From contig CDLV01000007.1 in the NCBI GenBank assembly GCA_001244265.2, positions 930,001 through 994,000 of the forward strand: DNA of 64,000 nt. The letters run 5' to 3'. This document shows positions 16,692 to 58,418 of this stretch, in pieces. The DNA is from Microbotryum violaceum (Eukaryota). The notes below the pieces were generated by a model. The model saw nothing but the letters and a program-made list of their open reading frames with translations. It searched no databases and was not told where the DNA came from. The position numbers and the translations under genes are program-made. Position 1 is the first letter of the stretch; each line of letters begins with the position of its first letter.

Positions 16692-19600
16692 ATGAGCAAC
16701 GAGAGCATACAGACGATTCAAGGAATCAAATCGGGTCAACGACAACGACCCGACTCGATCGCTCTCCCCGCTCGTGATGACTTCGCGTTAACCAGCCCAC
16801 TCTCACCGCCCGCGTCTACCACCTCATCCGGCGGCGCCAGTTCCGTCGATCGCCCCGGCGGGGCATTGCCCTCGTCACGGCTTTTTCCGATGAGGTCAGT
16901 CACGCAAAGTGTTGATGTGCTACGACGTGCAGCTGTCTACGCAACTGTCCACCGTATCGTTTTGATTACCTGCTGACGCCGACCCTGAACCTCGCATTTG
17001 TTACACGATCCCCGTCATGGCTCAACCCGCCGTTGAATCGTCGATGTGCATCTCGCTACACCTTCGCTTCGTCGTATCCATGTGGTGTCGTCGGTCAATC
17101 GGCGTGTGCAACATCCGAACTCGAACGGAAATATAATATAAATGTTTCCTCTGTGACGATGATGTTGCCGATCTCACCTGTACAGGAATGTGATGCACTA
17201 CCACTCGTCGAAGGGAAAGGAGCGTGCTGCTCCGATGTCGCCGGGCTCGCCTCCGTCATCGGGGTACCCAATCATGTCGCCGGCCTTTTCCAGAGCTTCG
17301 GGGACCTCTGCTATCACCTCTTCCATTGAACCTTTTACATTCCACGCATCGGCGATGCCGACCACGCGCAAGCTCGCGTCAAGACCCGAGACCCCCGGCA
17401 CCGCGTCGTCGGCCCCGACCGTCCCATCGGAGGGCGCGCAGTCCGACATACCTTTGCTGATGACGGCTCGATTCGAGCATTCGGTTGCACCGGATGGGTC
17501 TCACCACGTATTGACTGGAAGGGACGGGGTCATGGAGAGATGCGAAGATGAGGTGTGTTGGACGAGCGGGCTTGTAGACAGCTTACAGGAGCTTGCGCCA
17601 TCTCGTTAGCGAAATGTGAGGCGCTGACTCCTGCGCTTCGTGTTCGCGTGCCTTGCAACTCTCACGCTTCCCCAACACAGCCGATTCGGCTGCCTGGTGC
17701 GATTCAAGCCTTTGGGGTGCTGATCGCATTTGAAGAGCAACCGGATGGCAAGCTGCGGGTGCAGCAGGTGTCCGAAGTGAGCAGGAAGGAGCGCGGAATT
17801 GCACCTAGGAGCCGTAGGACTAATCTGGTCGCTTCGTTGCATCATCCGACGTCTTCCGCAGAACTCGAATTTTATTCTTGGCATGCGGCCAAACGACTTC
17901 TTCCGCACCCAATGCCTTACCAGTCTGCTAGACCCCGAAGAAGCCGACGCACTGCGGGACGCGCTCGAAGCACTCGACGACCGCGACGCTGATTCTGCCA
18001 ACTTGTACGAAGGGCCTATCAACTTCCAGCTCTCTGGAACGGGCCGACCTGGTTCGGCTGCGGCTGATGCCCAGGATTCGTCACGACTCGAATGGTCGTG
18101 TCATGCCGCGCTGCATCGGCCCGATCGGGTCAATCGGCCGAAAATGGCCGTACTGGAGCTGGAGCTGATGGACGACACGGTCAACCCGTTAACGACCGAA
18201 TCCACGGAGCCGGCATTGCATGAAGAAAAAGGAGGCATGGAGACGGACCAACCTTTCGAGCCGACTGAGGAGGATCTGCAAGAGAGTACGGTCTCGCTGG
18301 TCAAGCCGTTACGGTCATTGGCGGGGATGAAACGGCAGCGCCGGGCAAAGAGGTCGCAAGCGGATGTCGACGTCGTGACCTTGTTAATCAATATCAACAA
18401 CGAGCTCTCCAAAGCTGAAGATATCAATGTCTTCCTCAGGATCACAGCCGGTGTCTTTAAGGAGTTGACCGAGTTTGATCGCGCAATGGTCTACCAATTT
18501 GACGAGAAATGGAATGGTCGCGTTGTGGCCGAGCAAGTTGACTGGTCACGGACAAAGGACTTATTCCGCGGTCTGAACTTCCCTGCCTCCGACATCCCTG
18601 CCCAAGCCCGAGAGCTATATCGCGTGAACAAGGTACGACTGCTGTACGACCGAGACCAACCGACCGCTCGCCTGTGCTGCCGCGACGTGTCCGAAGTCGA
18701 CAACCCACTCGATATGACCCATTGCCATCTGCGAGCCATGAGTCCAATCCATATCAAATATCTCGGTAACATGGGGGTACGAAGCAGTATGTCGATTTCA
18801 ATCACTGCCTTTGGGGGCCTATGGGGCCTGGTCGCCCTGCATACATACGGACGGTATGGCCATCGAGTCTCGTTCCCCGTCCGACAGCTGTGCAAACTCC
18901 TCGGCTCGTCAATTTCGCGAAACATTGAGCGGCTATCCTACGCAAAGCGACTGCACGCTCGCAAACTGATAAACACCGCCCCGAGCGAGGCGAACCCTTC
19001 CGGCTATATTCTGGCCAAGTCAGAGGACCTCCTGCTCCTCTTCGACGCCGACTTTGGAGTGCTGAGCATCGGTGACGAGGCCAAGATCCTTGGCTCTGTC
19101 GTCAATTCTCAAGAATTGCTCGCCGTCCTAGAGTACCTTCGCGTAAAGCAATTCACGACGATGCAGCACTCTCAGGACATCCGTGCGGACTACAACGACA
19201 TCGACTACCCTGGCCCATTCGAGATGATCGCCGGCTTGCTCGCCGTTCCCCTCTCGAGCGAAGGCCGCGATTTCATTGTCTTCTTCCGACGCGGTCAACT
19301 ACAGGAAGTCAAATGGGCCGGCAACCCGTACGCGAACAAGACGGAAGACGGGGATGTTGGTCAGCGCCTCGAACCACGCAAGAGCTTCAAGACCTGGAGC
19401 GAAGTCGTGTTGGGGAAATGTCGCGCCTGGACGGATGAGCAGATGGAAACGGCGGGCGTGCTCTGTCTGGTTTATGGCAAATTCATCACGTGAGCCGTGC
19501 ACCGCTGAAAGGAGCAAGGTAGCGAGAGATGGCATGGTAACCTGGACTGAAGTGAACTCTTATTTGTACAGTGTGTGGAGGGAAAAGGAGTCCGCTCTCA

Positions 19601-21819
19601 AGACCAGCCAACTTAACAGTCTGCTGCTCGCCAACGCGTCCCACGAAGTGCGCACCCCGCTCAACGCAATCATCAACTACCTCGAGCTCGCGCTCGATAG
19701 TGAGGTCACGGATGAAGTGCGCGAGAACCTTACACGAAGTCACGCGGCGTCCCGTTCACTCATCCACGTCATCAATGACTTGCTTGATCTGACGCGCACC
19801 GAAAGAGGCCAAGACCTCTACCTGCAAGACCCGTTCAACCTGTCAACAACACTGGAGGATGCCTTGTCGGTTCACAGGGCTGAGGCCAAACGTCGGGGTA
19901 TCACGCTCGACGTGGTTGAAACCCCTCAGGGGACGCCAACAAATTTGCTCGGAGACCGAGGCAAAATCCGCACGATCGTCAGCAACATCGTCGGCAATGC
20001 GGTCAAGCACACGAAGAGCTCGGGCAGCGTCACAGTCGAGTGGGGCGAGATGACCGACGTGGATCTCGAGGATGCCATGGACAAAAAGACCGACAGTATC
20101 CGCATTGGGCTGTCGATCATCGACACTGGCGTGGGTATCTCAGAGTCACGCCTCGAGTCCTTGTTCCGCGAGTTTGAGCAGGTCTCGACTGTCGGCGATG
20201 ACCAGCGTGGGGAGGTAGCGTCCTCGGGGGGAACTGTCGGACTTGGACTGGCCGTCGTTGCTCGCATCATTCGCAATCTGGGAGGTCAACTGAGGGTCGA
20301 GTCAAAGGAAGGCGAAGGCTCCAAATTTATGGTCATCATACCGTTCCGACTCCCCCAGCAGCCGATCTCCCCGCCCGGCAGCTCCACAATGGACGACGAC
20401 ACGTTGGCGGCCTCATCGCGAACGATGAGTATCGCCAATGGGCACAGGTCGATGACCCGCTCCAACAGTACTGGTTCCGCCGGGTCGAAGAATTCGGACA
20501 TCGACTCCATCATCAGCGCCATGTCGAGCTCGCACATGAACCCTGGAGCTGCCAGACATATGACGAGCGGCAACCAGCGAATGCTGCAGGCGAAAACGTC
20601 GCGCGCTTCGAACACTTCCACTTCGAATCGATCCAACCGCTCTGAAGGGTCGATGCGCTCAAATCGATCCTACAACTCGACGGGCACCGTCGGGAGCAAG
20701 GCCAGGTCGAACGGCTCGATCGAAATTGATAGCTCGAACGTCGCACTACGGGCCATTCGGGTGCCGCCACTTATGCGCTCTGCACAGGAGTTGAATTCTC
20801 CGGACGGCGATCAGGAACGAACAATAGTACGCCGCGGCTCGCTCACCCGGACTGGATCGCGCAGTGGTGTACTGGCCTCCTCCGAGGAGCACCGAGGAAA
20901 GATCAATGCCGCACCGGCTACGACGAAGCGAATCACAAACATTCATGCGGCCATTGCATCGCTTACTTCATCCACACGGATGGACTTCGCCGACGCTATT
21001 GCGGAACAGGACGGGGCCGTCGAAACCGGCGACGCAAGTCTTCAGCCACTGATCGAAAGTCCGATACACGTGAGCCAGTACAAGGCATCGCCACCGGCAG
21101 TGCAAGAGGATAATGTTCCCTCGATGCGCGTACTGGTCGTCGAGGACGAGCTCGTCAATCGCATGATCCTGCAAAAGCGACTGACCAAGGATGGCCATGA
21201 TGTCGTTGTCGTCGAGCATGGCGGTGATGCTGTGCGGCTGTTCAAAGAGGACCGACAAGTGAGCCCAGTGTTTGTGTCCTTATTTTATGAGGAGCGTTAC
21301 AGAAAGCTGACGAATAAACATGCCTTGCTATCAGTTCGATTGTATCTTGATGGACCTGCAAATGCCGATCATGGGCGGTCTCGAGGCGACGCGTCAGATC
21401 CGGAGGATCGAGCACGACGAACCCGTCTCCCTGGCGCAGCAGAGGCCTTCCTCGATATTGAACGGCCAGATCCCGATCCTTGCCGTTTCAGCATCGCTGC
21501 CGGAACGTGAACGACCACTGATTGTGGAGGCCGGTATGGACGGATGGTGCCTCAAACCGGTCGATGTCAAGCGCTTACGCAAATTGATGCGCGGAGCTAT
21601 CGACGTCGCTGTGCGGAGCGAAGACGTTTACCAGTCAGTCACCATTCTCACGGTTTTCTGATCCTGTTGGCATCTCCAAAGGCGCGTGAACCCATACTCG
21701 AGGTTTTGTTTGCCCACAGAGCTGGCTCGTTTGAGAAAGGCGGATGGAACTTCGAAGCGCCGTCGCATCGACCGTCCAAGCCCGACGTGGCCGACTGGGT
21801 TCAGAACCTGTCCAAGTAG
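16692..21819 (+). CDS. Fungal phytochrome (N-terminal extension-PAS-GAF-PHY-histidine kinase-receiver), red/far-red photoreceptor, FphA/Phy1-like
   Basis: RCEDE|PIRLPGAIQAFG carries the bilin-binding Cys. Also GAF FPASDIPAQARELY and LRAMSPIHIKYL, PHY LEPRKSFKTWSE, H-box LLANASHEVRTPLNAII, HATPase DTGVGI/GLGLAVV, receiver ILMDLQMP, and C-terminal EKGGW. Introns are GT-AG. Confidence 0.97.
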
Positions 21820-23413: not shown

Positions 23414-26400
23414 CTACTTTGTGTCCATCGGGACATCCTCCTTCTCGTACCCTTCATTCTTCCTCAGGATGACATCTGCGATTGCCAAGCGGAAATAGTT
23501 AGGTTAGTGAGCATTCATCGGCGCGTGCAAGTCATCGGAAACATTGCTGCAACTCACATCCTTCAAGTACATGCGAGTAAGAGATATACTCCTCTGTCGC
23601 CAACTCGGCACGTTCGACCTGGCCCAACCGCACCGGTGTTTGATGCGTCTGGAACCCGGAGATCGTTCTCGGTTTACCGGCTTGACCCACGACATCGACG
23701 GCGGTCCCGACTCGGACCGTAGCGGGCAAGAATTCGCCTTCCTCGTTGAAGGTGATGAGGAAGCGAGGGTACATGGCCATGACGATAAAGTAGAGCATCC
23801 AATGTGACTTGTCGAGAATGAACTCTTTCGAATCGGTGAAGGCGATGATGGTCGCCAATAGACCCGCAACGGCGACGGGGGACATGAGGGTGCGATCGGT
23901 ATGGAATGGGTTGATCCCGATCGTACCTTTACCCATATGCACCAGGCCTTGCGCGATACGGACCATGAAGAGGCAGTCGGGTTCTTTGGCGTAGTACGAT
24001 GCGAGCTGGCGCAGCATTTGTGCCAAGCGCGCATTGTTCGTTCCCGCGCCGACGAGACCCATCGCGAAGATGGCGTTGATTGAAACGGCGAGGTCGTTGT
24101 CGTGCGAGTAACGCGACAGAGTATCGAGCAACGTCAAGACCGGGTTCGAAGCCGAGATCAGACCCAAGGCCAGAGGGACCGCACGACGAATGACGGATTC
24201 CCCATAGTGCATCAGGTGGTTGAGCTGTCGGATCGCCATCTCGGAACCGACATCTTCACCCATCGAAATGACTGCGATACCGAGCACGGCAAAGGCCTGG
24301 TGCAGGTCTTCTTCCTTTTCGGCGTCGATGTGCTCGTAGCAGTGGTTTAGCATCGATTGTATCTTGAGCACGTTCCCTGTCCCCGCGTACGACAGAATCT
24401 CGACGAGCACCAAAGTCTGTTTCCCGATCGGGGCCTCGATCGCCTTGAGTGTCTCGATCGTCGCGTCCGAAGCGTCTTGTCGACTGAGGTAGAGCACCGC
24501 CAAGCCAAGGCCCAAGAAGCGACCCCACTTGCTCTTGAGCTCGGCTTCCTCACGCTCCATCATGGTCTGCAGAATCGCCATGGTCACCTCGCCATCGCAC
24601 GAACCGACAAAGATGAAGCCCAACGCGAGCGACGTCATGGCCGCGATCTCCATCGTCACCGCCGAGTCGGCGATGGCTGGAAGAAGGAGCTCTCGAATAT
24701 CCTCCCGTTGTGTGCCGGCGTACGCGATACCGATACCGACGATGGCCGCAACTCGTAACGGCACCGATTTGGACTCGACATGTTCGGACAAGAGAGCGAG
24801 CGCGGCGTCCATCTCGGTTCGGATCCCCGAGTGAATCAACCCGTTGGCCAGCATCGCACCGGCCTTAATGTGTTCCTCGGTCGCGTAGGCGTACTTGTCG
24901 ATTTGTGACAAGCCGACGTCCGTGTCCCATAGCAAACTGACACCGAGCGAGGCCGCGGCGGAGAACATGCCGTGGTCCTTGTTCTTGTAGATCCAACTCT
25001 GCCCCTCCTCGGCCTCGACCATCAGCTTGTCGTTGCCGAAGCCGGCGTTGACGAAGGCGTTAACAAACGTGCCGGCCAAGTTTTGACGTGCCGAGTCGAC
25101 GCTCGCGGCGGCGCCGCTCCGTGATGTGTTTTCGAGGTGGGATTTGTAAATATCCTCGAGCGACTTGGGTTCGGTGACGTTGAGCTCTTTGCCGAAGCGC
25201 TTGAAGTTCTCGGTCAGCTTGGTGTTGTTGAGGATCTCGACGAGGTCCTCATCGTCGGTCTCAATATTGACTTGTTGACGAGCCAAGAGGTACGCGAGTT
25301 GTCGCTTCATGTGACTGAGTGGAAACAAAGCATGCCATTCAAGGGTTATGCATCAGCATGCTGCCCCTCGTAAACATTCCCACTTTGTTGGACTAACGGG
25401 TTTGTCGGGGATTCAAAGTCCTCCTTGATCAAGTCCATGTCTTGCAACTTGAGCGAGAGCGCAATGCTCTCGGTGTACTTGCCGTGCTTGCGGTAGATCT
25501 CGCGCGCGGTTTTGAGGAAGAGTTGGTCGTCGGGAGAGATGAGCAGGTTCACGCACGAGACCATGTAGAGGCACACGCGGGCGTAGGTGTCCTTGTCGAC
25601 GTGGGGTACGATGCTCGGAATCGATTCGAGTTCGAGCAAGAGATCGACGGCGTCGGCCTCGCCGTTGTGGGTGAGCAAAAAGGGGACGAGACGCAATCCG
25701 AGCTGGAGCAAGTCGTCGGTCGACTCGGTCGAGCTCTCGTCGTTCTGTCGGGCGAGGTATTCTTCGCCCAACTCGGCCGCCAGGTGACGCACGTACTCGT
25801 GTCCCCACAGTCCCGAATCCTCCTCGCTGCCGCCCTTGAGCCGGTAGGACAGCGTTTCGCGCTTGCCCGAGTCCGAGTAGGTCATGGCAAGCACGGAGAG
25901 GATGTCCGCAAAGAGGCTCTTGTCGCTGACGGAGGCCGTGCTCGAGTCAGCGGATGTGATGCCGACGGCCTTCTTGACGTCGTCGAGCATCGAGGTCGAA
26001 GGCTGGTCCGGCCACGAGGCCTGGATGGCGGCGAGATCGGCGTAGTGGGGACGGAGGTGCTTGAGCGGCTTGGGCACCGAGGTGAGCGACGAGGTCGAGG
26101 TGCGGATCAAGGTTCGTAGTGACTCGAGTGCGGGTCGGTACAAAGACGTGTCGGCTTCCTGTTTGGGGAGGAAGGTTAGTCACGGGTGAGTGAATTAGGT
26201 GGGAGGTGGAGAGAGCGGGACTCGCCTTGAGTCGCTCGACGAGCATCTCGAGTTCGCTCTTGAGTGCAGCATCCTCTTCGGACTGCGAGCAGTGTACGAG
26301 TCAGTTGCTGTTGTACTTTTGTTTCGTTGCAGGCTGGGTTGGTTTCGGAGCGGACGCCGACATCGAGGTCGAGGCCGAGGTCGACGCGTGGTCGGTGGCT

Positions 26401-39269: not shown

Positions 39270-40890
39270 AAGCTCGGCGAATCCTCCTCGGCGCACGTGG
39301 CGAACCGAGATAAGCTCACCCCAACTTTCATCACGGCCCAGCAAAATGTTTTTGATCAAATTGCGCTGCTTTTGACCGCCCTGGGCCGGTTCGGTTCGGG
39401 ATATGGAGCAAGCTAGGAATGCCAAATATACTGCATTACAACATTGTACTCAAACATCCTGCTCGTTCCCCTCTCCCCATAGTGCTCATACTTTCCTCTG
39501 CATGCATCTGCAAAAGCCAGTCGAACGACGGTAGCTTCGGTGTCGGAGCAGTCGAAGACAAACGTCTCCGGCGCGAACGACGGAACCGAGCTTCGAACCC
39601 GTTGGAGCCAATTCATGTTGGGATATCTGCAATGGCACATGGTAGGGATTCACATGAGCAGTCGAACATACGGTAGCAGATCGCTTTTTAGTGGGTGCTC
39701 AATAATACTGACTGAGTTTCATGAGGCGTCAACATCCACGCGACTGGACACCTTTGTCGGCGCGCGAGTGCTTGACCACGAGCGAGAACAAGTAGACCTT
39801 TGCGTGTCGATCAAACATGGCATAACAGGTGTTAAGCGTTGATTTCGTCATGACCAGACGTTCGCATTGCTGAATCACTCGTGATCGTCATGGGGAACGC
39901 AGGAGCACCGCTCACGTCGGTCGGCAAGCGTCATCCCGGATATTCTCGCGAAACTCGGCGTGCCAACCCTCGGAGCGCAAGCGCTCGATTCAGGCGTTGA
40001 CATTCTCTCGAGCAGCGGAGGCACGGGGCGATTGGGAGGGCATGTTCTGTTGCACCTTGTTGTACACGTCCCTGTATCTGACGCGGAGTATTTCCGGTAT
40101 GGTCGGAGATGAGCCAAGATCGCCGATCTACGAACGAAGAAGTCAACAAGTCAGGGTCAGTGGAATGATACATATAATGACTGATGACATTGTAGGGATG
40201 CGAAATCTACTCACATTCATCGTCTCTTCTTCGGATAGTTGCATTAACTTCAGCGTGCTCCGATCGAGCCCCTTGGAAGCAACCTCGGAAAGCCAAAGCT
40301 GAGCCGGAGCCGAGAGTCGCGAGCGAAGGAGGTATTCGGACGAGTAAGGATCATGGTTGTTGTGGGGCGTAATCACGACATGGTAGATTGTGGGGTTGTC
40401 GCGGTAATAAGATACAGTTATCGCAGCCTTGCAGCCGCATTTGATCGACGACTTTCGAATTCGCTTTCGCATTGATTCTGTCACTGATCTTGGGCTTCCG
40501 GCCCAATTGCAGATGCATTGTTCGAACATGACTTTGCGATGTTGACCTTTGAGACGAGTTTCGGGATCTGGGTGGACAGGAGCAGCGGTAGATGGACAGT
40601 CAATAACACAGTCAGCAGAGGCATCGAGAGCAACGCGCTGTTCGACTTTCAAGGAATGACGGAGACCTACTCGGCGGCTGATTGGCTTGACCTTCGATTA
40701 AAGCTTTGCTCTTGTAGCTCTTGCTCTTGTGGCGTTGCCAATTGATGGTCTCACGTTGGCTCGCCAGCCAGTTGGGGAATTCGGCGGCGGATACCACTGT
40801 TGTTCGTATCGAGTTTGCGTCAGGCGGTGCAACGAGAGGGCGCGTGGCCTTGTACGACATTGATGAGTCGAAGAGGGGATTTGATGTCAT
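39270..40890 (-). pseudogene. Mutator-like (MULE) transposase remnant
   Basis: FAR1/WRKY-GCM1-type finger CNWAG...SIKCGCKAAITVSY....YHVV..HNNHDP. MULE core fragments NTCY....KVYLFSLVVKH...KG and PETFVFDCSDTE....LAF. Frameshifts present. Confidence 0.75.
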
Positions 40891-50003: not shown

Positions 50004-51390
50004 ATGCCATCACTCGCCTTCGAGACAGTGGATGCCTTCACCTCAACCGCGTTCGCCGGCAACCCTGCAGCCGTGATCGTCCTGTCGAAGCAACAGACCC
50101 AGGAGTTCGATGCGACGCAGATGCAACTCATTGCACGAGAGTTCAACCTCAGCGAAACTGCATTCGTCTGTGCATTGAATGACGAGGTCGAGGTCAAGGC
50201 TGGCGAGGTGGAATATTTGATTCGGTGGTTCACTCCGACGGCAGGCGAGCTTACATGACTCTTGACTTATTCAGCTCGACTCCGAGTCAAGGCTGAAGGT
50301 TTCTCACCCAAGTTGCTGAATAGTTCGCTGATAATTCTACCTACTTATCGTATGATTAAACAGAGGTCCCCATTGTAAGTGATGGTGCCACAAGTTCTCC
50401 TCGGCACAATAGTCATTAGGACCTGACCCTGCCACTTGCTCGCTCCCTCTCTCCATAGTGCGGTCACGCCACGCTTGCTTCTTCGCACTGCCTTTTCACA
50501 AAACATCATTCCGATGCGCGACAAATCAACTTCAAGCCGCTCCATTCCGAAAGCCTGACGATCCAGCGCCGAGCCGCCGATCGCATCGAGCTCAACTTCC
50601 CCGCGGACGTCAGCAGTCATCCTCGAACGATCCCCAAAGATTCGGAGCGATGGTGCCTGATCATCAAAGCGCTTGGCAAGGCTTTAGGAGTGGAAGTCGA
50701 GCCTCATGTGGTTGCTATTTCTGATTCTGTTACCGGTCCTTTGATCGATGTTTCGGTCGATGGCATCAACCTCGAGACGGCTAAGTGGAAATCCCAGGCT
50801 TTTGTGAGTCAAAGTTTCGATGGCCGGATGGGATGGACGGATTCGTATACCCTGCAAAAGCTGATGGTAGTGTTGACCTGAGAATATACAGACCGCAGAG
50901 GTGTCTACATTCCAAGTCATCGTCACACAACCGGCGTCGAAAGGAGAGCAACAGGATGTCTCGTCTCGAGTTTTCGGGCCTGTGCTCGGTGTGCCCGAAG
51001 ATCCGGTGGTGCGTACTCCGAATCCTCCTAGTCTTTCACTGTGAGGAATAACCTTCTTGCACAACGTGCTAATACATAAAACTGCCTATTGCCATCCCGA
51101 TTGGGACATCACAGACCGGCTTTGCTCACACTGTCCTCGGTCCCTACTTGGGCAAAACGAGCGCTGCGCCTCATGCTCGCCTCCTCGCTACCAAAGGACT
51201 GACAACATGGTCCAAAGATTCGATGGAGTGCAAGCAATTGAGCGAAAGAGGTGGGACGTTGGTCGTGAGGTGGAAGGATGCAAAAAGCGGATCGCATCAG
51301 TTTGGAAGGGTCGGCCAAGACGGTGATGAGGGGAACGTTAGAGTATTGAACGGGTTGAGATTGCATGTTCAGGCTCTTTGCATGTTGTAG
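50004..51390 (+). CDS. PhzF/PBLD-family (diaminopimelate-epimerase-like) protein, paralog 1
   Basis: VDAFT..AFAGNPAAV, MQLIAREFNLSETAFV, IRWFTPTA|EVPI|CGHATLAS, SRVFGP.LGVPEDPV|TGFAH, QLSERGG. Confidence 0.92.
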
Positions 51391-51629: not shown

Positions 51630-54600
51630 ATGCACGCGATCCCAGGAATACTCGTCCCCTTGCTTCTTTGTAAATGTGCTCTGGCCCTGTCGCTGCGATC
51701 TTCTCCGCAAGCCGAGCTCAATAGACCATCTGACTCGGAGCTGATAGGCCGTCAGTCCATGCCGTCATCCGGACGGGCCGGCGAGGCGCAAGACCGTTTC
51801 CGACTCCCCGACGTGCCTAAGCAAGACGGACCCAAGATGACGAGCATCGAGTTCTACCCGTTGCTACCGCCAGCAATTCCACTGGCAGTCAAATCGCCTT
51901 GTACGTGCTGAGCTGTGGTGTACGCAATGGATACAAGTTCCTGGCATCCCCGGGGCTGCAGTGTGGGGGGCGGACGGTTCAGTGTGGGGCTGTCAGCTGA
52001 CGTCGGACGAGGTGTCTAGTGGCTGCAACCTAGCAGCGTGCTAGCAGTATCCGGTCGCTGACCATTCGATCGTACATCTCTTAACTCTGATATCTGTTCA
52101 GATCTCAATGCCTGGCTCCCAACAGGCAATGATCGCCAGGACGCGGGCCACCTAGCCGGGCACTGGCCTCGCTTCTGGCCAATTTCGTACCCGCACACCG
52201 AACGAGGCTACCGTCTCGGCTGGTCGGGGATGATCCGCATCGACTCGAACCAAACCTACGTCTTTCTCGGCGATCCTGGGTCGACTCCGGGTTTGAAAAG
52301 ATCGAAGGTCCGTCATTCTACATGGGGTTTGTCTTGGCAAGGGCGGTTTGGCAGGTCGACTGACTGACTTCTTTCTGGGATGCTGGCGAACCCTCCAGAT
52401 GGCCGCGCAAACCCGGTTCGAATATACAGCAAGTCGGTCGATCTTCTCCTTCAAAGCCGGAGGTGTTCACTTCAATGTCACCTTTGTCTCGCCCATCACC
52501 CCCGAAGACCTGATATCGACAAGCTTGCCGTTGTCCGACTTGGTCGTCGAGATCGATAGCAAGAGCCTCAAGCAACATCATGTCGAGGTCTACACGGATA
52601 TCACGGGAGAGTGGGCCACCGCCGACTCCAACGCTCCAATAGTGAGATGCGGCCCTTCATGATATCCTTTCACGTGTTACAATGACTTACAAAGGATCGA
52701 TTTCCGTGCTCCGTGCGCAGACATGGGACTTTGTCCATCATTCTGCAGCAGGCATCCACCTGGTCCGACGCAGGGATGAGCTGCTTTTTGAGGAGATCAA
52801 CGAACAAGCTGAATGGGGAAGTGCCGTGTATGCTACCGAAATGGTGAGAGCTCTGTTGCACCAAAACGTCTCTATCAAAGATCTTTTCTGATGTTTACTG
52901 TTTTTAACTCTTGCGGGTACAGTCGCATTCCACTCGAGCGGGCTCCGGTCCCGCTCGTAAACTCAGAAAGGAGTTTGCTGAACAAGGGCGCCTCAGTGGT
53001 GCGCTTGACGCCCAGTACCGTGCTGTGAACGATGACCAGCCAGTTTTCGGGTTTTCTGAAATGATGAGCCCTCAGAAAACAAGTGTCACCTTCACGATTG
53101 GTCACATGCGAACACCTTATGTTGTAAGCCCAACCCCGGCCTGAGCTTAGGGGGGCCGCTTTTCCGGCTGCGCACCCACAGCTGATCCCAACTCCTGCAA
53201 ACTCTAAACTCTAAACAGAACTATGTCACAAGTGGGGGTCAAGTCAACCTCGATGGATATTGGATGACCCAATTCCCCACCTTCACCGAGGCTGTTGCTG
53301 GGTGGATAAAGAATGGCTCTGCCATCCATGCCGCCGCCACATCTTTTGACCGCAAGCTTCGGCGAGATGCGATCAGGGTTTCGGGCAAAAACTATGCCGC
53401 AGTTGTGGAGCTATCGGCCCGCCAAGCATTTGCTACGTTCGAGATCACTTCTGGGGGCAAGGGCGAAGGTGATACTGTGGCTTTCTTGAAGGAGATCAGC
53501 TCGAATGGTGACATGTCGGCAGGTTTTGGGACAGATCTAAGGAACCAACCTTGGACTGGCAGCTTATCATCATCACATGTTCTTGCAGACGGTGGACGTC
53601 ATCTTTCCCCTCTACCCAATTTTGGCGTACGCCCAGCCAAAACTCATCAAACTGCTACTCGAGCCCTTGCTACGGTATGCGACCAGCGGCCTGTATCCAA
53701 ACCAATGGCCGTGTCACGACCTGGGAACGTATCCAAACGCCCGCGGTTACAACGATGGCAATGATGAGGCCATGCCCGTCGAAGAAGCGGGCAACCTGCT
53801 GTGGATGGTGTTGGCCTATGTCCAACTGTCGCACGATGTTGAATTTGTCGAGGAATACTACCACATCTTGACACAGTGGACGGCATTCCTGATCCAGGAT
53901 GGTCTTATCCCTGCTGAGCAATTGAGTACCGATGACTTTGCGGGTGAGCCAAACACGTTTCGGTCCCCGGGCTTCTGAGAACCCGGCAGCTGACTCAAAT
54001 TATGACCACAGGTACTCTGTCAAACCAGACCAATCTTGCAGTCAAAGCCATTGTCGGAATAGGTGAGTAGTGGAGTCTTCCATTTGCAAAGCTAATCGTC
54101 TCTCCTTTCTCTTACGCATGTCTTACTTCCATGCAATAGGGGCTATGGGTGGGCTAGCGGCCAAAACCGGGAGGTGGGTCGAGTCCATTCATTATGGAGC
54201 GACAGCCAAGGTCAGTCATCTCATCCTGCTTGTTGTTACTGCAAGTTTGCATATTAACCTCCTGGCAATCGCAGGCATATGCTGCCGAATGGTATGACCT
54301 GGCGCTCACGCCCAAGCCCATCGACTTACCGCACGCCAAGCTCGCCTATCAGGATGAAAACTCGCATGGCTTACTCTGTACGTCCCAAATTTTATCCCGG
54401 CTCCTTGCTCTAGGAGCTGACACAATTGATTCCTACCGCATTACTAGACAACTTGCTCGGAGATCGCGCCTTGAATTTGGGCATTTTTGACCGTCAACTC
54501 TACGAATGGCAGTCCAAGTTTTATACTACGCTTCTTCAACCTTTCGGTGTGCCCCTTGACTCTCGTCATCTTTGGACCAAATCCGATTGGGAAATGTTTG

Positions 54601-55021
54601 CTTCCGCGTCAAGCACATCTCGTGACTCGAGGGATATGTTCGTCGACTCCATCGTTAAGTACCTCAAGGCGGGCAAGGTTGATGCAGCTTTCCCAGAGTG
54701 AGCCCATCATTTCGGAGCAGAGCCATTTCTGCAGAGGGCTAATCGGAAAACATGTAACCCTGCAGTCTCTACGAAACGACCGATGGTAACTTTCCAGGCC
54801 GAGGGCTTGATTGGCCTATCGAGTTCATTGCTCGACCCGTTGTTGGGCAAGTTCAGATTGGCCTTTCTTCCTGACACAGACTCCTAGATCACATGGGTTC
54901 GTTCACTAACCATGATCAATTTTGAATATGCAGGGGCCATTTCTCCCTTCTTGCGCTTGATGTGGCCAACAAAGCAAATGGGGTCAAGCGCGACCCATTC
55001 CGGGGCAATGACTTGGACTGA
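51630..55021 (+). CDS. Secreted GtaA-type glutaminase (DUF5127/DUF4965/DUF1793 architecture), many exons
   Basis: Signal-peptide-like N-terminus; PPAIPLAVKSPYLNAW; FLKEISSNGDMS|TVDVIFP; HDLGTYPNA.G..DG.DEAMPVEEAGN; QLSTDDFAG.L.NQTNLAVKAIVGI; FGVPLDSRH.WTKSDW; ARPVVGGHF. Confidence 0.93.
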
Positions 55022-55387
55022 ATGATGGTGCCCGGTCTTTGGGGGAGTACTATATACGTCCAGCATGAGTGGTCAATGGACCCGATGCATACGGTTTTTA
55101 CTCTTTGCAATCTTGCTTACTTTACACCAGCCAATTGGGCACACGAGATCCACGGAGTCTAGTGTGAGGGACAACGCAACATAATCGATCAGAAGAGATT
55201 GTTGCGGGGCCTCACAGCTAACTGATCGGCACGGGTGCGCACAAGTCCGCACGGACTCCGGCCTGAGTCGCTTGACTCACTCTCCCCCTCACACCTTTCA
55301 ATCGGCTTGCAACTTCCATCGAAAGGCCTAGCTTTAAGTCCACCCATTTTCTCCCTACAACACACGACTCAGAACTTGTCCACAACG

Positions 55388-56494
55388 ATGTCACCCCTCC
55401 CAGGGCATCGTCGCTCGCTGCCCTATTGGACCTTGGACGTCTTCACCTCGTCGCACTTCCACGGCAACCCCGCCGCCGTCCTCGTTCTCCCTACCCCTAC
55501 TTCACCCGAATTCGATGATGTTGCTCTACTCCAAAAGTTGTCCACCGAATTCGCCCTCCCCAATACGGCGGTGCTGAGACCTACCTCGGATCGTCGAGTG
55601 TGGGACGTCCGTTTCTTCTCCAAAACCCAACAGATCCCCTTATGAGGACACGCGACCATGGCCGCGGCCCATCTATTCGTGAGAGAATTGAAAACGGTAG
55701 ACCTCGATGCAGATTTCGTGTTCCGTACCTCAATGGGAAGAGGGGATATCAAAGTCTCGCAAGTCGGCGATGTGCTGGGGATCGAACTCCCCGCTGATGG
55801 ATCGGTCTTGGACCAGGACAACGTACAACAAATCGACACGGAACGAGTCAAACAGGCTGTATCACAGTCCACAAAGGGTGTCGAAGCGCATGATATCGTT
55901 CATGTGGTCAGGAGCGAGCGGGTCGGTTGGGTCGTCGACCTTTCCCCCGACGTCGATTTGAAGAATCTGCTCGTCGAACCGAAACCGATCGTTAGTCCCG
56001 CTCTTTTATCAATGGCATACTCACCATCTGATCAAACCTTGTAATGCGAATCTTTGGCATGAACAGGAAGATCTGACCCCCTTCATGTTGGTCATGACCC
56101 AACCCTCGAGTCAAGGCGGCGTCAACTCGAGAGTGTTCTGTCCTAGCATGGGCACGATCGAGGATCAAGTGGTGCGTTTGGTACCCGTTTCTCAAGTGAA
56201 TACGATCGAGCCTCGACGAAAACCGATACTGAGCTCTATACTTTAATTCGCCTCCCACAGTGCGGATCAGGGCATTGCTCGGTCGTGCCGTACTTCCTCG
56301 GCACCCCTTCCGCCCGAGCACGGTTATCACCCGAAGGCATCACCCAGACAAAAGCGAACGACTCGGGGTTCCAAGTCACACATCTCAGCAAACGAGGCGG
56401 AAAAATGTTCGTCACGTGGGAAGAGAAGAAAGGGACGTGCGTACTCTCGGGTGACACCGTGCTCGTTAGTGGTGGGAACGTCTTTTTGCCTTGA
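55388..56494 (+). CDS. PhzF/PBLD-family protein, paralog 2, with an in-frame TGA at 55643-55645 (recoded gene or young pseudogene)
   Basis: LDVFTSSHFHGNPAAV, VRFFS..QIPL*GHATMAAAH, SRVF.P.MG.IEDQV|CGSGHC, HLSKRGG, LSGDTV.V..G. Frame and splice sites stay intact after the TGA. Confidence 0.85.
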
Positions 56495-56626
56495 AGGAGG
56501 CGTGTTTACGGCCGTTATGGTCGAGCGTTGTCTAGAAATTAAGCAGTCATCGGCCAAGTGAACGCTTGAATTCCAACACATATCCGCACAACATCGATAA
56601 GATTGCTCCTCCGCTCGAACGCGATC

Positions 56627-58418
56627 CTAGTCCCAATCCTCATCACTCTCATCATCACCATCACTATCGCCGAGCTTGCCCTTGCGCTGGTTCAAAGCCG
56701 CAGCCAAAGCGCTCGCCAGATCGGCTCCTCCTCCACCACCCGCTACGTCTTCATCACCGCCAGCAGCCATAGCAGCACCGGCACCGGCACCGGCAGCCAT
56801 TGCGGCACCGGGAATTTGAGGAGCCGCTCGAGCGTCCGGGTCGGCACCGGTTTTGCGCAGTTGACCAACACCAGCACCTTGGATCGAGGCCAAAAGACCT
56901 GCTCGTCCGTCTTGGGGAGCTGGAAGTTGGACGGCAGGCGATGCCCCGGGTGGAGGTGGGGGAGGGGGAGGTACACCGCGAGGGGCAGGAGGAGGTGGTG
57001 GCGGCGGGGCAGACGGCCCGGCGGAGCGAGCAGGTGGGGCCGGGGGAGGAGGAGGTGCGCCTGAGCAGAAACACAGACGCGTCAGCTTTTAAAGATACTG
57101 CGCGATGTTTATCGTGAACACGGACTGGAAACTCACCTCCACGGGGCGGGCCACTCGCCGGTGGTGGGGGAGGTGGGGGTGGGGGTGGGGGCACGACGCT
57201 CGAGCGAGATGGAGGTGCAGACGATGGAGGTGGTGGTGGACGTGCAACAGGTGCTCGAGAGGGTGGCAAAGTCGGGGCAGCGTCGACAGAGGAGTCGGAA
57301 GCAGGCACCCTACGTGGTGCGGGCGGCGCAGGAGGTTTGCGCTTGATGTTCTGCACAACTCGAGAAGCAGGGGCGGGAGGAGGCACTTTTCGACTAGGAG
57401 GGCCTGAAGGTGGTGGAGGTGCGGGCAATGCAACAGCGCTCGGGCCGCCCGATCCTTCCACGTAGTTTCGGATGAAGGCCTCGTTCTTGATGATTTGGTT
57501 CTGCGGGGTTCACACGGGAAGAAGGCTACTTAGTCCCTTTCTATCGACAAAATCTCAAAGCCCAATCGGGATGATCCCCAGCTCACCCTACTGATTCCTT
57601 GTCCTTCGAGTTGTCCGAGCAATCGTTCCCAGCTCGGATCGACATTACTACTGCTGAAGCCCTTTTCCGTGTCAAAGCCCATGTGAGCGACGTGACTGAA
57701 GCCGGTCGGGGCGCCAATCATGCTCTTGTCGATCACGCCCTTCTTCTTCTTCTTCCCGCTGGGACTCGAGGTAGCAGCCGATGCAGATGAGCTCTTCTTG
57801 GACGATTGGCCGGCTTTGCTCGCGTATTTGGATCGCATCGAGACTTTCTTAAACATCTCGGCGGCTTCGGATTCGGATGAAAAGGCGAGACCTATCATGC
57901 AGTCCTGCGTGTCACGTGGATATGCAAGTAAGCATTCATGACCAAAAGCTTTACTTTGGTCGACGTTATAATTCGATGCTGTCTCGCCGTGTACGACAAC
58001 CGGGATGCGACTAGGCCACTCACATCAGACGGGAACGTGTGGAAAAAGGTTCGATCCTGGTAGTACTGCATCTCTTCAACAATCTCGTGTATCCAAATCG
58101 TCCCTCGTGTACCCTGCACAGGTTTGTTGTACATTCGATCAGCGCTGCAACCTTCCCCGTCCGAGATCGGGCATCCGAGCCACGGCAGACCGATGTAGGA
58201 CTCACCGCCAGATCAACAACCTTGATCCATCCACCCTGACTACCCCATCCGAATACGAGTGCGCCACTAATACCGCTGTAGGACCATTTGGCCGGGTCGG
58301 GGAAGGCGTAGTAGACTCGCGCGACGGCGGCGGTGTGGATCTTGTCCCCTGGCGCTGAGGGGGCATGTTTCTTGATCAGCGACTTTTCGTTCGAGGTGAG
58401 GGTTGATGTGGAGGGCAT
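56627..58418 (-). CDS. WASP/Las17/Wsp1-like Arp2/3 activator
   Basis: WH1 (AAVARVYYAFPDP.KWSYSG; YYQDRTFFHTF; MIGLAFSSESEA), CRIB (IGAPTGFSHVAHMGFD), polyproline, WH2 (LLASIQGAG...LRK), central helix LASALAAALNQRK, acidic DDESDEDWD*. Confidence 0.95.

What the first reader, a model, noticed from the sequence alone, without database searches (positions are those of the whole stretch)
55620..55670. In-frame TGA exactly at the active-site Cys of an otherwise intact PhzF paralog: possible UGA recoding (Cys readthrough or Sec)
Seen: CAG ATC CCC TTA TGA GGA CAC GCG ACC reads QIPL*GHAT. The paralog 5 kb upstream reads EVPI-CGHAT at this position. No GT/GC donor nearby could splice the codon out. About 200 downstream codons, two introns and the family motifs (SRVF.P, EDQVCGSGHC, LSKRGG) remain intact. 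TGA is an ordinary stop in ATP19, the PTEN-like gene and the glutaminase, so the code is not globally reassigned. Known: UGA aligned to a catalytic Cys is the selenoprotein hallmark; Sec machinery is reported in some early-diverging fungi but not Dikarya; yeast near-cognate tRNA-Cys can read through UGA-G. Inference: this is programmed readthrough, an unexpected selenoprotein, a very recent TGY>TGA nonsense allele, or a sequencing error. The last two have the higher prior. I saw no canonical AUGA..AA..GA SECIS core in the short 3' region (56495-56630), only weak stems.
Basis: partly seen in the sequence, partly recalled or inferred. Interest (0 to 1): 0.85.

Follow-up and report, generated by a model that had tools for sequence, protein, structure and literature searches.

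The report
Recent nonsense mutation in PhzF-like gene

Summary
TGA at 55643-55645 is codon 86 of a three-exon PhzF-like gene (ATG 55388, natural stop 56492-56494).

- **Organism:** protein hits place the window in Microbotryum lychnidis-dioicae. The p1A1 Lamole reference already splits this gene at the TGA into an 85-aa and a 223-aa protein, MVLG_05019.
- **Relatives:** all three in which the codon could be read have Cys. These are the sister species M. silenes-dioicae (98% identical), M. saponariae (91%), and a roughly 90%-alike relative whose spliced, probably RNA, contig reads TGC.
- **Conservation:** the Cys is invariant in 21 of 21 aligned family members.
- **Against recoding:** no SECIS-like match, no unusual RNA structure, and a TGA-GGA context rather than the fungal readthrough motif UGA-CU. 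The literature places loss of Sec before Dikarya.
- **Second lesion:** the window's copy also changes another family-invariant residue, Ala to Gly in CGSAHC.

Best reading (about 0.87): a young lineage-specific nonsense allele or pseudogene.

**Not achieved:** no same-species reads were laid over the codon, and no genome was available to search for Sec machinery.

The parts
55643..55645 (+). In-frame TGA, codon 86: a premature stop at the family-invariant Cys of the C-G-H loop. Context TTA TGA GGA CAC.
   Evidence: Relatives read Cys or TGC here. Cys is invariant in 21 of 21 aligned relatives.
55388..55990 (+). Exon 1 of the PhzF-like gene (codons 1-201). It includes Asn59 at the position of PhzF Glu45 (LPNTAV instead of LSETAF).
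   Evidence: translation. Pfam PF02567 E=2.1e-19. PDB-chain alignments. X20 contig collinear over 55355-55990.
55388..55645 (+). The 85-codon N-terminal frame that ends at the TGA. It is present in public protein sets as a separate 85-aa protein (P0007).
   Evidence: P0007 ends ..QIPL and sits on the same 131,061-bp contig as MVLG_05019.
55658..55660 (+). ATG of Met91, used as the start of the annotated 223-aa protein MVLG_05019 (P0003). It lies 4 codons after the TGA.
   Evidence: P0003 begins MAAAHLF and is 100% identical to the window.
55991..56066 (+). Intron 1, 76 nt, GTTAGT..CAG.
   Evidence: The joint 55990>56067 (GT..AG, skips 76) appears in the X20 contig.
56067..56171 (+). Exon 2 (EDLTPF...SRVFCPSMGTIEDQV), holding the E-D pair that aligns with PhzF Glu207-Asp208.
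56172..56260 (+). Intron 2, 89 nt, GTGCGT..CAG. It is retained as a 30-aa insert in the 343-aa ortholog models P0002 and P0006.
   Evidence: The X20 contig leaves 56171 and resumes with letters that read CGSAH (tables 5 and 5c).
56261..56494 (+). Exon 3 (CGSGHC...LSKRGG...NVFLP) with the natural TGA stop at 56492-56494. The Gly in CGSGHC replaces an Ala that is invariant in relatives.
50004..51390 (+). Upstream canonical PhzF paralog. It keeps LSETAF and EVPI-CGHAT and has an inferred 11-nt micro-exon at 50364-50374. It is an old duplicate of the focal gene.
   Evidence: Pfam E=4.6e-19 for its exon 1. Only 44% identity over 59 aa to the focal family. The gene model is inferred and the 3' end is not modelled.

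Best explanation
The TGA is a recent third-position change, TGC to TGA, that arose in the M. lychnidis-dioicae lineage after it split from M. silenes-dioicae.

The gene is a diverged PhzF-fold paralog conserved in Microbotryomycetes. It lacks the PhzF catalytic Glu. It keeps the invariant C-G-H loop and has C-G-S where PhzF has T-G-S.

Translation from the ATG at 55388 ends after 85 residues. What is left is a young pseudogene or null allele, whose downstream exons, introns and motifs still look intact because there has been little time for decay.

Shown: the stop, the gene model, Cys in relatives, family membership, and the absence of recoding signals. Inferred: loss of function, possible mRNA decay, tolerance of the loss, and fixation in the species.
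For: 1. The stop is real in the window and in frame.

2. Public protein sets hold the two halves as separate proteins on one 131,061-bp contig. These are the 85-aa P0007, ending ..QIPL, and the 223-aa MVLG_05019, starting at Met91. The reference annotation therefore carries the same stop.

3. Five runs from two studies hold 1.00 of the 131 sampled 31-letter words of 55300-56600.

4. Cys is seen in 3 of 3 relatives where the codon could be read. They are M. silenes-dioicae P0006 (98% identical over exon 1), M. saponariae P0002 (91%), and the X20 contig, which reads A>C at 55645, giving TGC. The two species are called sisters, with a split estimated at 420,000 years (passage, citing Gladieux 2011).

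5. The gene was a constrained coding gene. dN/dS is 0.30 over codons 1-119 against X20: 0.31 before the stop and 0.27 after.

6. Orthologs exist in other Microbotryomycetes, for example Leucosporidium creatinivorum P0008 at 41% identity with the same LPNTAV and CGSAHC motifs.

7. On the M. lychnidis-dioicae branch there are 4 replacements plus the nonsense, against 2 on the M. silenes-dioicae branch. One of the four, Ala>Gly in CGSAHC, hits a column invariant in 21 of 21 relatives.

8. There are no recoding signals. No SECIS among 5 chance-level Rfam matches at E<=10. Fold z-scores are +0.71 downstream of the TGA and +1.38 for the 3' region. The context is TGA-GGA, not UGA-CU(A).

9. A canonical paralog 5 kb upstream could offer partial redundancy.
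Against: No read or contig of the same species was laid across the codon. X11 and X16 laid nothing and X19 has a hole over 55596-55836.

The reference annotation may derive from the same assembly as the window, so it may not be independent.

The stop falls on 1 of 104 possible single-base nonsense paths in this CDS, and that one is at an invariant Cys. This is a coincidence that recoding would explain more naturally, although the finding was selected for exactly that coincidence.

The branch-specific excess of replacements rests on 4 versus 2 changes. dN/dS against X20 has no power on the short terminal branch.

Expression of the broken allele was not examined.
Confidence: 0.87

Rival explanations
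1. Leaky nonsense (hypomorph). Near-cognate Cys-tRNA occasionally decodes the UGA-G, so a small fraction of ribosomes make the exact ancestral full-length protein. The allele would then be tolerated or mildly functional rather than null.
For: In yeast, UGA-G and UGA-C favour Cys-tRNA as the near-cognate decoder (abstract, section 6). The codon is followed by G. A Cys insertion would restore the residue invariant in 21 of 21 relatives. A relative's contig, X20, carries another in-frame TGA, also followed by G, at codon 5 as laid.
Against: The yeast data show a preference among near-cognates, not efficient readthrough. UGA-C, not UGA-G, is the leaky tetranucleotide. The fungal programmed motif is UGA-CU(A), which is absent here. 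There is no downstream structure. The stop is absent from 3 of 3 relatives read, so nothing is conserved. The extra Ala>Gly at an invariant column suggests relaxed constraint. No expression or protein data were available.
Confidence: 0.07
2. Assembly or sequencing error: the true codon is TGC or TGT.
For: No same-species reads were laid on the codon. The window and the reference annotation may come from one assembly.
Against: Five runs from two studies hold 1.00 of the sampled words of the stretch, and a further possible source run holds 0.98. The public annotation splits the gene at exactly this codon. The site is not a homopolymer or repeat.
Confidence: 0.03
3. The truncated products are the functional forms. 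These would be the 223-aa protein from Met91, as annotated (MVLG_05019), and/or the 85-aa N-terminal piece.
For: Both are annotated in public sets. Met91 lies 4 codons after the stop, so reinitiation is conceivable.
Against: The 223-aa form matches only Pfam profile positions 73-279 of 281. It lacks the GNPAAV strand and the whole loop that carries the catalytic residue in PhzF, plus the invariant C-G-H. All relatives encode the full-length form. Reinitiation after an 85-codon frame is generally inefficient (general knowledge, not tested).
Confidence: 0.02
4. Selenocysteine insertion: a new fungal selenoprotein.
For: UGA aligns with a Cys that is invariant in homologs, which is the classical Sec/Cys pattern.
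Against: No SECIS match on either strand of 55000-57500, even at E<=10. The 3' region is not structured. The sister species, about 0.42 My apart, has Cys. A survey of fungal genomes places Sec loss before the split of Dikarya and dismisses the only three Dikarya assemblies with tRNA-Sec as bacterial contamination (passages). Microbotryum is not named in that main text, and its genome list is in a supplement I could not see. There is no tRNA gene in the window.
Confidence: 0.005

Closest known systems
Ordinary premature-stop allele or young unitary pseudogene, as catalogued among degenerative mutations in M. lychnidis-dioicae (PMC7150583, passages seen)
   Same: A single-base nonsense change in an otherwise intact gene. 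Intact orthologs exist in sister species. The annotation is split or truncated at the stop.
   Different: That paper's premature stops are discussed mainly for the non-recombining mating-type chromosomes. This 64-kb window gave no transposon or reverse-transcriptase domain among the 40 frames scanned. Its chromosomal compartment was not determined.
PhzF / YddE family (Pfam PF02567; PDB 1s7j, 4dun, 1sdj, 1qy9, 1ym5, 1u0k)
   Same: The domain matches above the Pfam cutoff. The GNPAAV, C-G-H-A-T and E-D-x-x-x-G-S motifs align.
   Different: The catalytic Glu45 of PhzF is Asn here (LPNTAV). PhzF Thr211 is Cys here, and PhzF has Ala72 where this family has the Cys. It is probably not a DHHA isomerase, and its substrate is unknown.
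Eukaryotic selenoprotein genes (Sec-UGA paired with Cys homologs)
   Same: UGA sits at a position where all homologs have Cys.
   Different: There is no SECIS and the UGA is not conserved. The host clade is reported to lack Sec machinery.
Fungal programmed readthrough at UGA-CU(A) (Ustilago maydis peroxisomal isoforms, PMC4207609)
   Same: A UGA stop in a basidiomycete gene with open frame beyond it.
   Different: That motif acts at natural stops to add C-terminal extensions and needs CU after UGA. Here the stop is internal, is followed by GGA, and is absent in relatives.

Membership tests
Eukaryotic selenoprotein gene | In-frame UGA aligned with Cys in homologs | tested here: met
   Cys in 21 of 21 aligned relatives.
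Eukaryotic selenoprotein gene | SECIS element in the 3' UTR | tested here: not met
   Rfam scan of 55000-57500, both strands, at E<=10 gave 5 matches, none a SECIS and all below gathering score; 3' region z = +1.38.
Eukaryotic selenoprotein gene | Sec machinery in the genome (tRNA-Sec, eEFSec, PSTK, SecS, SPS2, SBP2) | not testable with these tools
   No genome is held for the window and there is no tRNA in the window. The literature places Sec loss before Dikarya (passages). The genome list is in an unseen supplement.
Eukaryotic selenoprotein gene | UGA conserved in close orthologs | tested here: not met
   3 of 3 relatives read at this codon have Cys or TGC.
Programmed stop-codon readthrough | Leaky context (UGA-C or UGA-CU(A)) | tested here: not met
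   The context is TGA GGA CAC. Motif taken.
Programmed stop-codon readthrough | Stimulatory downstream RNA structure | tested here: not met
   100 nt after the stop give z = +0.71, and 155 of 200 shuffles fold at least as well.
Programmed stop-codon readthrough | Stop codon conserved among relatives | tested here: not met
PhzF family (PF02567) | Domain match above the curated cutoff | tested here: met
   exon 1 scores 70.5 bits and ortholog P0006 scores 98.6 bits, against a cutoff of 27.
PhzF (DHHA isomerase) proper | Catalytic Glu45 in the L-S-E-T-A-F loop | tested here: not met
   Asn in the window and in P0002, P0006 and P0008. Glu in 14 of 21 aligned relatives. Role of Glu45.
PhzF (DHHA isomerase) proper | Gly73-His74 and Asp208 / Gly212-Ser213 substrate-binding residues | tested here: met
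   G-H follows the TGA. E-D and G-S are present in exons 2 and 3.
Young pseudogene or null allele | Disabling lesion absent from intact orthologs | tested here: met
Young pseudogene or null allele | Lesion confirmed in independent reads of the same species | tested here: inconclusive
   Word shares of 1.00 in 5 runs of 2 studies, but no same-species contig was laid over the codon.
Young pseudogene or null allele | Relaxed constraint after the lesion | tested here: inconclusive
   4 versus 2 branch replacements, one at an invariant Ala. dN/dS of 0.30 against X20 reflects older history.

The most novel reading that the evidence does not exclude
The nonsense allele is not null. Because the stop is UGA followed by G, the near-cognate tRNA most likely to slip in is Cys-tRNA. 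Rare readthrough would then rebuild the exact ancestral enzyme, making this a self-correcting nonsense mutation that selection tolerates. A second in-frame TGA-G at codon 5 of a relative's abundant contig could be another case of the same tolerance in this gene.
Probability: 0.06. Interest if true: 0.45.

Novelty: new member of a known kind. Interest (0 to 1): 0.1.

Why it matters
As it stands, this matters mainly for annotation. MVLG_05019 and the neighbouring 85-aa protein are two halves of one broken PhzF-like gene, and the 343-aa ortholog models in sister species retain an intron.

It removes a candidate for Sec use or stop-codon recoding in Dikarya.

It also gives a dated example, at most about 0.42 My old, of gene loss in a selfing plant-castrating fungus. 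The loss is in a Glu-less PhzF-like subfamily of unknown function that is conserved in Microbotryomycetes.

Tried and rejected
- **Whole-genome search for Sec machinery:** no genome is held for this window.
- **Read check of the codon in the same species:** X11 and X16 laid 0 contigs, and the tool says this can be a filter artefact. X19 has no cover over 55596-55836. None of this says anything about the codon in those runs.
- **RNA evidence:** no RNA holder was listed among the 24 runs. No statement on expression of the window's allele is possible.
- **Splicing the codon out:** 122 in-frame GT/GC..AG pairs span it, none with a GTRNGY donor. The relative's spliced contig is collinear there. Rejected.
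- **Crude test for TGA read as sense in the window:** counting frames joined by a single stop was uninformative, because this GC-rich DNA has many long chance frames.
- **A-to-I editing of UGA to UGG,** as known from ascomycete sexual stages (recalled, no call): it would give Trp at an invariant Cys, and no RNA of this species was available. Set aside.
- **Literature:** 'MVLG_05019' is in 0 papers. 'Microbotryum' with 'phenazine' gave 8 papers, 7 of them listed, and none of the listed ones was relevant by title or abstract.
- **Mating-type-chromosome degeneration as the cause:** not testable here. 40 long frames scanned with Pfam gave ordinary genes and no transposon or reverse-transcriptase domain; the only possibly mobile-related hit was a FAR1 domain below Pfam's cutoff. 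The chromosome was not identified.
- **Structure prediction:** not run, because no unaltered, correctly spliced full-length sequence was available. The ortholog models retain intron 2.

Full report
**1. The observation**

The window reads CAG ATC CCC TTA TGA GGA CAC GCG ACC at 55631-55657. The TGA occupies 55643-55645. It joins two open frames of 139 and 132 codons.

Translating 55388-55990 with TGA shown as X gives 201 residues with a single break at residue 86..FFSKTQQIPLXGHATMAAAHLF...

My gene model is:
- Exon 1: 55388-55990.
- Intron 1: 55991-56066 (GTTAGT..CAG).
- Exon 2: 56067-56171.
- Intron 2: 56172-56260 (GTGCGT..CAG).
- Exon 3: 56261-56494.

This model gives a 942-nt CDS whose only stops are codon 86 and the terminal codon 314.

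**2. Organism and existing annotation**

A search with exon 1 found 4 proteins at E<=0.001 among 213 candidates.
- P0003 is MVLG_05019 of Microbotryum lychnidis-dioicae p1A1 Lamole. It has 223 aa, is 100% identical to the window, and begins at the Met four codons after the TGA.
- P0002 is a 343-aa M. saponariae protein, 91% identical over all 201 residues, with Cys at residue 86.

The 90% cluster of P0002 holds two more members.
- P0006 is from M. silenes-dioicae. It has 343 aa, is 98% identical to exon 1, and has Cys86.
- P0007 is an 85-aa protein identical to the window's N-terminal frame. It ends ..QIPL and sits on the same 131,061-bp contig as MVLG_05019.

The public reference thus already carries this stop, and annotates the gene as two pieces.

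**3. Relatives and the ancestral state**

One call was available to lay public runs.

X11 and X16 laid nothing, which the tool warns can be a filter artefact.

X19 is 95-99% alike or better, has depth 2.6-3.6, and keeps the introns. Its three contigs leave 55596-55836 uncovered.

X20 gave one 1990-nt contig of depth 644.8, about 90% alike.
- It is collinear with 55355-55990.
- It skips 55991-56066 (GT..AG).
- It leaves exon 2 at 56171 and resumes with letters reading C-G-S-A-H.
- It is therefore a spliced transcript of an ortholog, and it supports my gene model.
- At 55645 it reads C, giving TGC.

In 3 of 3 relatives where the codon could be read, it encodes Cys. [quoted passage not shown] The change is therefore TGC>TGA on the short M. 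lychnidis-dioicae branch.

**4. What the gene is**

Pfam PF02567 (PhzC-PhzF) matches as follows:

| Query | E-value |
|---|---|
| Exon 1 | 2.1e-19 |
| MVLG_05019 | 3.2e-11 |
| P0006 | 6e-28 |
| Exon 1 of the paralog at 50004 | 4.6e-19 |

Seven PDB sequences match P0006 at E<=0.01: 1s7j, 4dun, three entries of E. coli YddE, yeast 1ym5 and PA4716 1u0k. In the three printed alignments, L/I-C-G-H-A-T aligns with QIPLCGHAT, and L-S/P-E-T-A-F aligns with LPNTAV.

Passages of PMC4586147 say the following about PhzF:
- Glu45, His74 and Asp208 are the critical residues.
- The Gly73/His74 and Gly212/Ser213 amides bind the substrate carboxylate.
- Ala72 is one of the residues lining the site.

By motif, the TGA position corresponds to Ala72, not to the catalytic Glu. 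The Glu itself is Asn in this gene.

An exhaustive HMMER search with P0006 found 4356 proteins at E<=0.001, of which 5 were at E<=1e-30. I then aligned 21 sequences:
- P0006 and P0002.
- 17 of the listed 150 hits. I left out P0010, P0015, P0022 and P0025 among the top hits because of their lengths.
- P0004 and P0005.

C86, G87 and H88 are invariant in this alignment. The Glu position is E in 14, N in 3, M in 2, A in 1 and D in 1.

The closest non-Microbotryum relative is P0008 of Leucosporidium creatinivorum. It shares LPNTAV, RIPLCGHAT and CGSAHC.

The gene therefore belongs to a Glu-less PhzF-like subfamily of Microbotryomycetes with unknown substrate. The stop hits its most conserved loop.

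The upstream paralog is canonical, with LSETAF and EVPI-CGHAT, but is an old duplicate: 44% identity over 59 residues.

**5. Tests of recoding**

- **SECIS:** an Rfam scan of 55000-57500 on both strands at E<=10 returned 5 matches. All were far below their gathering scores and none was a SECIS.
- **RNA structure:** the 100 nt after the stop fold no better than shuffles (z +0.71). Neither does the 3' region 56495-56700 (z +1.38).
- **tRNA genes:** ARAGORN finds no tRNA gene in the window.
- **Sec in fungi:** passages of bioRxiv 10.1101/314781 place one Sec loss before the split of Dikarya. They attribute the only three Dikarya assemblies with tRNA-Sec to bacterial contamination. Microbotryum is not named in the main text, and the genome list is a supplement I could not see.
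- **Readthrough context:** the programmed motif shown in the basidiomycete Ustilago maydis is UGA-CU(A) (passages of PMC4207609). Here the context is TGA GGA CAC.
- **Near-cognate decoding:** That work describes preference among near-cognate tRNAs and names UGA-C as the leaky tetranucleotide.
- **TGA as an ordinary stop:** this gene ends at TGA, at the C-terminus shared with its orthologs. The RPN1 frame ends at TGA 7 residues after the RPN1_C match.

**6. Constraint and decay**

I used the 40 X20 substitutions listed for 55394-55745 (25 more were not shown by the tool). Nei-Gojobori dN/dS over codons 1-119 is 0.30: 0.31 before the stop and 0.27 after. This shows a constrained coding gene over the long branch. 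It has no power on the recent branch.

M. saponariae serves as outgroup.
- The M. lychnidis-dioicae copy has four derived replacements: F45V, Q70R, E184D, and Ala>Gly in CGSAHC.
- It also has the nonsense change.
- M. silenes-dioicae has two derived replacements.

The Ala>Gly change falls on a column invariant in 21 of 21 relatives, and X20 also reads Ala there. These numbers are small, but they point to relaxed constraint.

**7. Points against my reading**

- No same-species contig was laid over the codon. Support for the base call rests on the window, on an annotation that may come from the same assembly, and on word shares of 1.00 in five runs of two studies.
- Only 1 of 104 single-base paths to a stop in this CDS hits Cys86. 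The coincidence with an invariant Cys is real, though the finding was chosen because of it.
- X20's contig, as laid, has TGA at codon 5 (55400 C>T and 55401 C>G), where M. saponariae has Ser. I cannot explain how that abundant transcript is translated from the shared ATG.
- X19 shows a 5-nt deletion at 55453 in a contig of depth 3.1, within a CCG-rich run. It may be an error, and the annotated M. silenes-dioicae protein is intact there.

**8. Verdict**

The TGA is a genuine, lineage-specific nonsense mutation that made a young pseudogene or null allele. It is already visible, though not explained, in the reference annotation. Recoding by Sec is close to excluded. Biologically meaningful Cys readthrough remains a small possibility. 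The finding is ordinary.

Noticed in passing
window 55400-55402 (as laid from run X20): The relative's abundant spliced contig reads TGA at codon 5, from two adjacent substitutions. It is also followed by G, and M. saponariae has Ser at this codon. Either that ortholog starts elsewhere, or it is also broken, or the stop is read through.
   Followed up: partly
window 55453 (run X19): A 5-nt deletion in exon 1, in a contig of depth 3.1 from a relative 95-99% alike. It would shift the frame. It lies in a CCG-rich run and may be a contig error.
   Followed up: no
window 56172-56260, and proteins P0002, P0006, P0012, P0013: The 343-aa ortholog models of M. saponariae and M. silenes-dioicae carry a 30-aa insert that equals retained intron 2. 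The X20 contig splices it out. Two Phenoliferia proteins have an insert at the same alignment position, which suggests the same mis-modelled conserved intron.
   Followed up: partly
window 50244-50459: The canonical paralog seems to need an 11-nt micro-exon (50364-50374, coding EVPI with one base from exon 1). A GC-AG intron (GCGAGC..CAG) precedes it. This is inferred from the sequence only.
   Followed up: partly
window 55562-55564, and alignment A2: The PhzF catalytic Glu is replaced in a set of basidiomycete relatives. It is Asn in Microbotryum and Leucosporidium, Ala in Meredithblackwellia, and Met in Rhodotorula toruloides and Naematelia. The C-G-H loop stays invariant. This may be a subfamily with a different chemistry.
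   Followed up: partly
window 52297-54701 (+): A glutaminase A gene (DUF5127 plus GtaA six-hairpin domains, several exons) lies between the two PhzF-like paralogs.
   Followed up: no
window 17781-21507 (+) and 23535-26179 (-): A phytochrome-type histidine kinase (GAF, PHY, HisKA, HATPase_c) and proteasome subunit RPN1. Among the 40 long frames scanned, no transposon or reverse-transcriptase domain matched; the only possibly mobile-related hit was a FAR1 domain below Pfam's cutoff at 40146-40697 (-).
   Followed up: no
window 56627-57509 (-): A convergent neighbour encodes a very proline-rich protein (long PPPPP runs, acidic C-terminus ..DEDWD) with no Pfam match. Its stop lies only about 130 nt from the PhzF-like gene's stop.
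   Followed up: no
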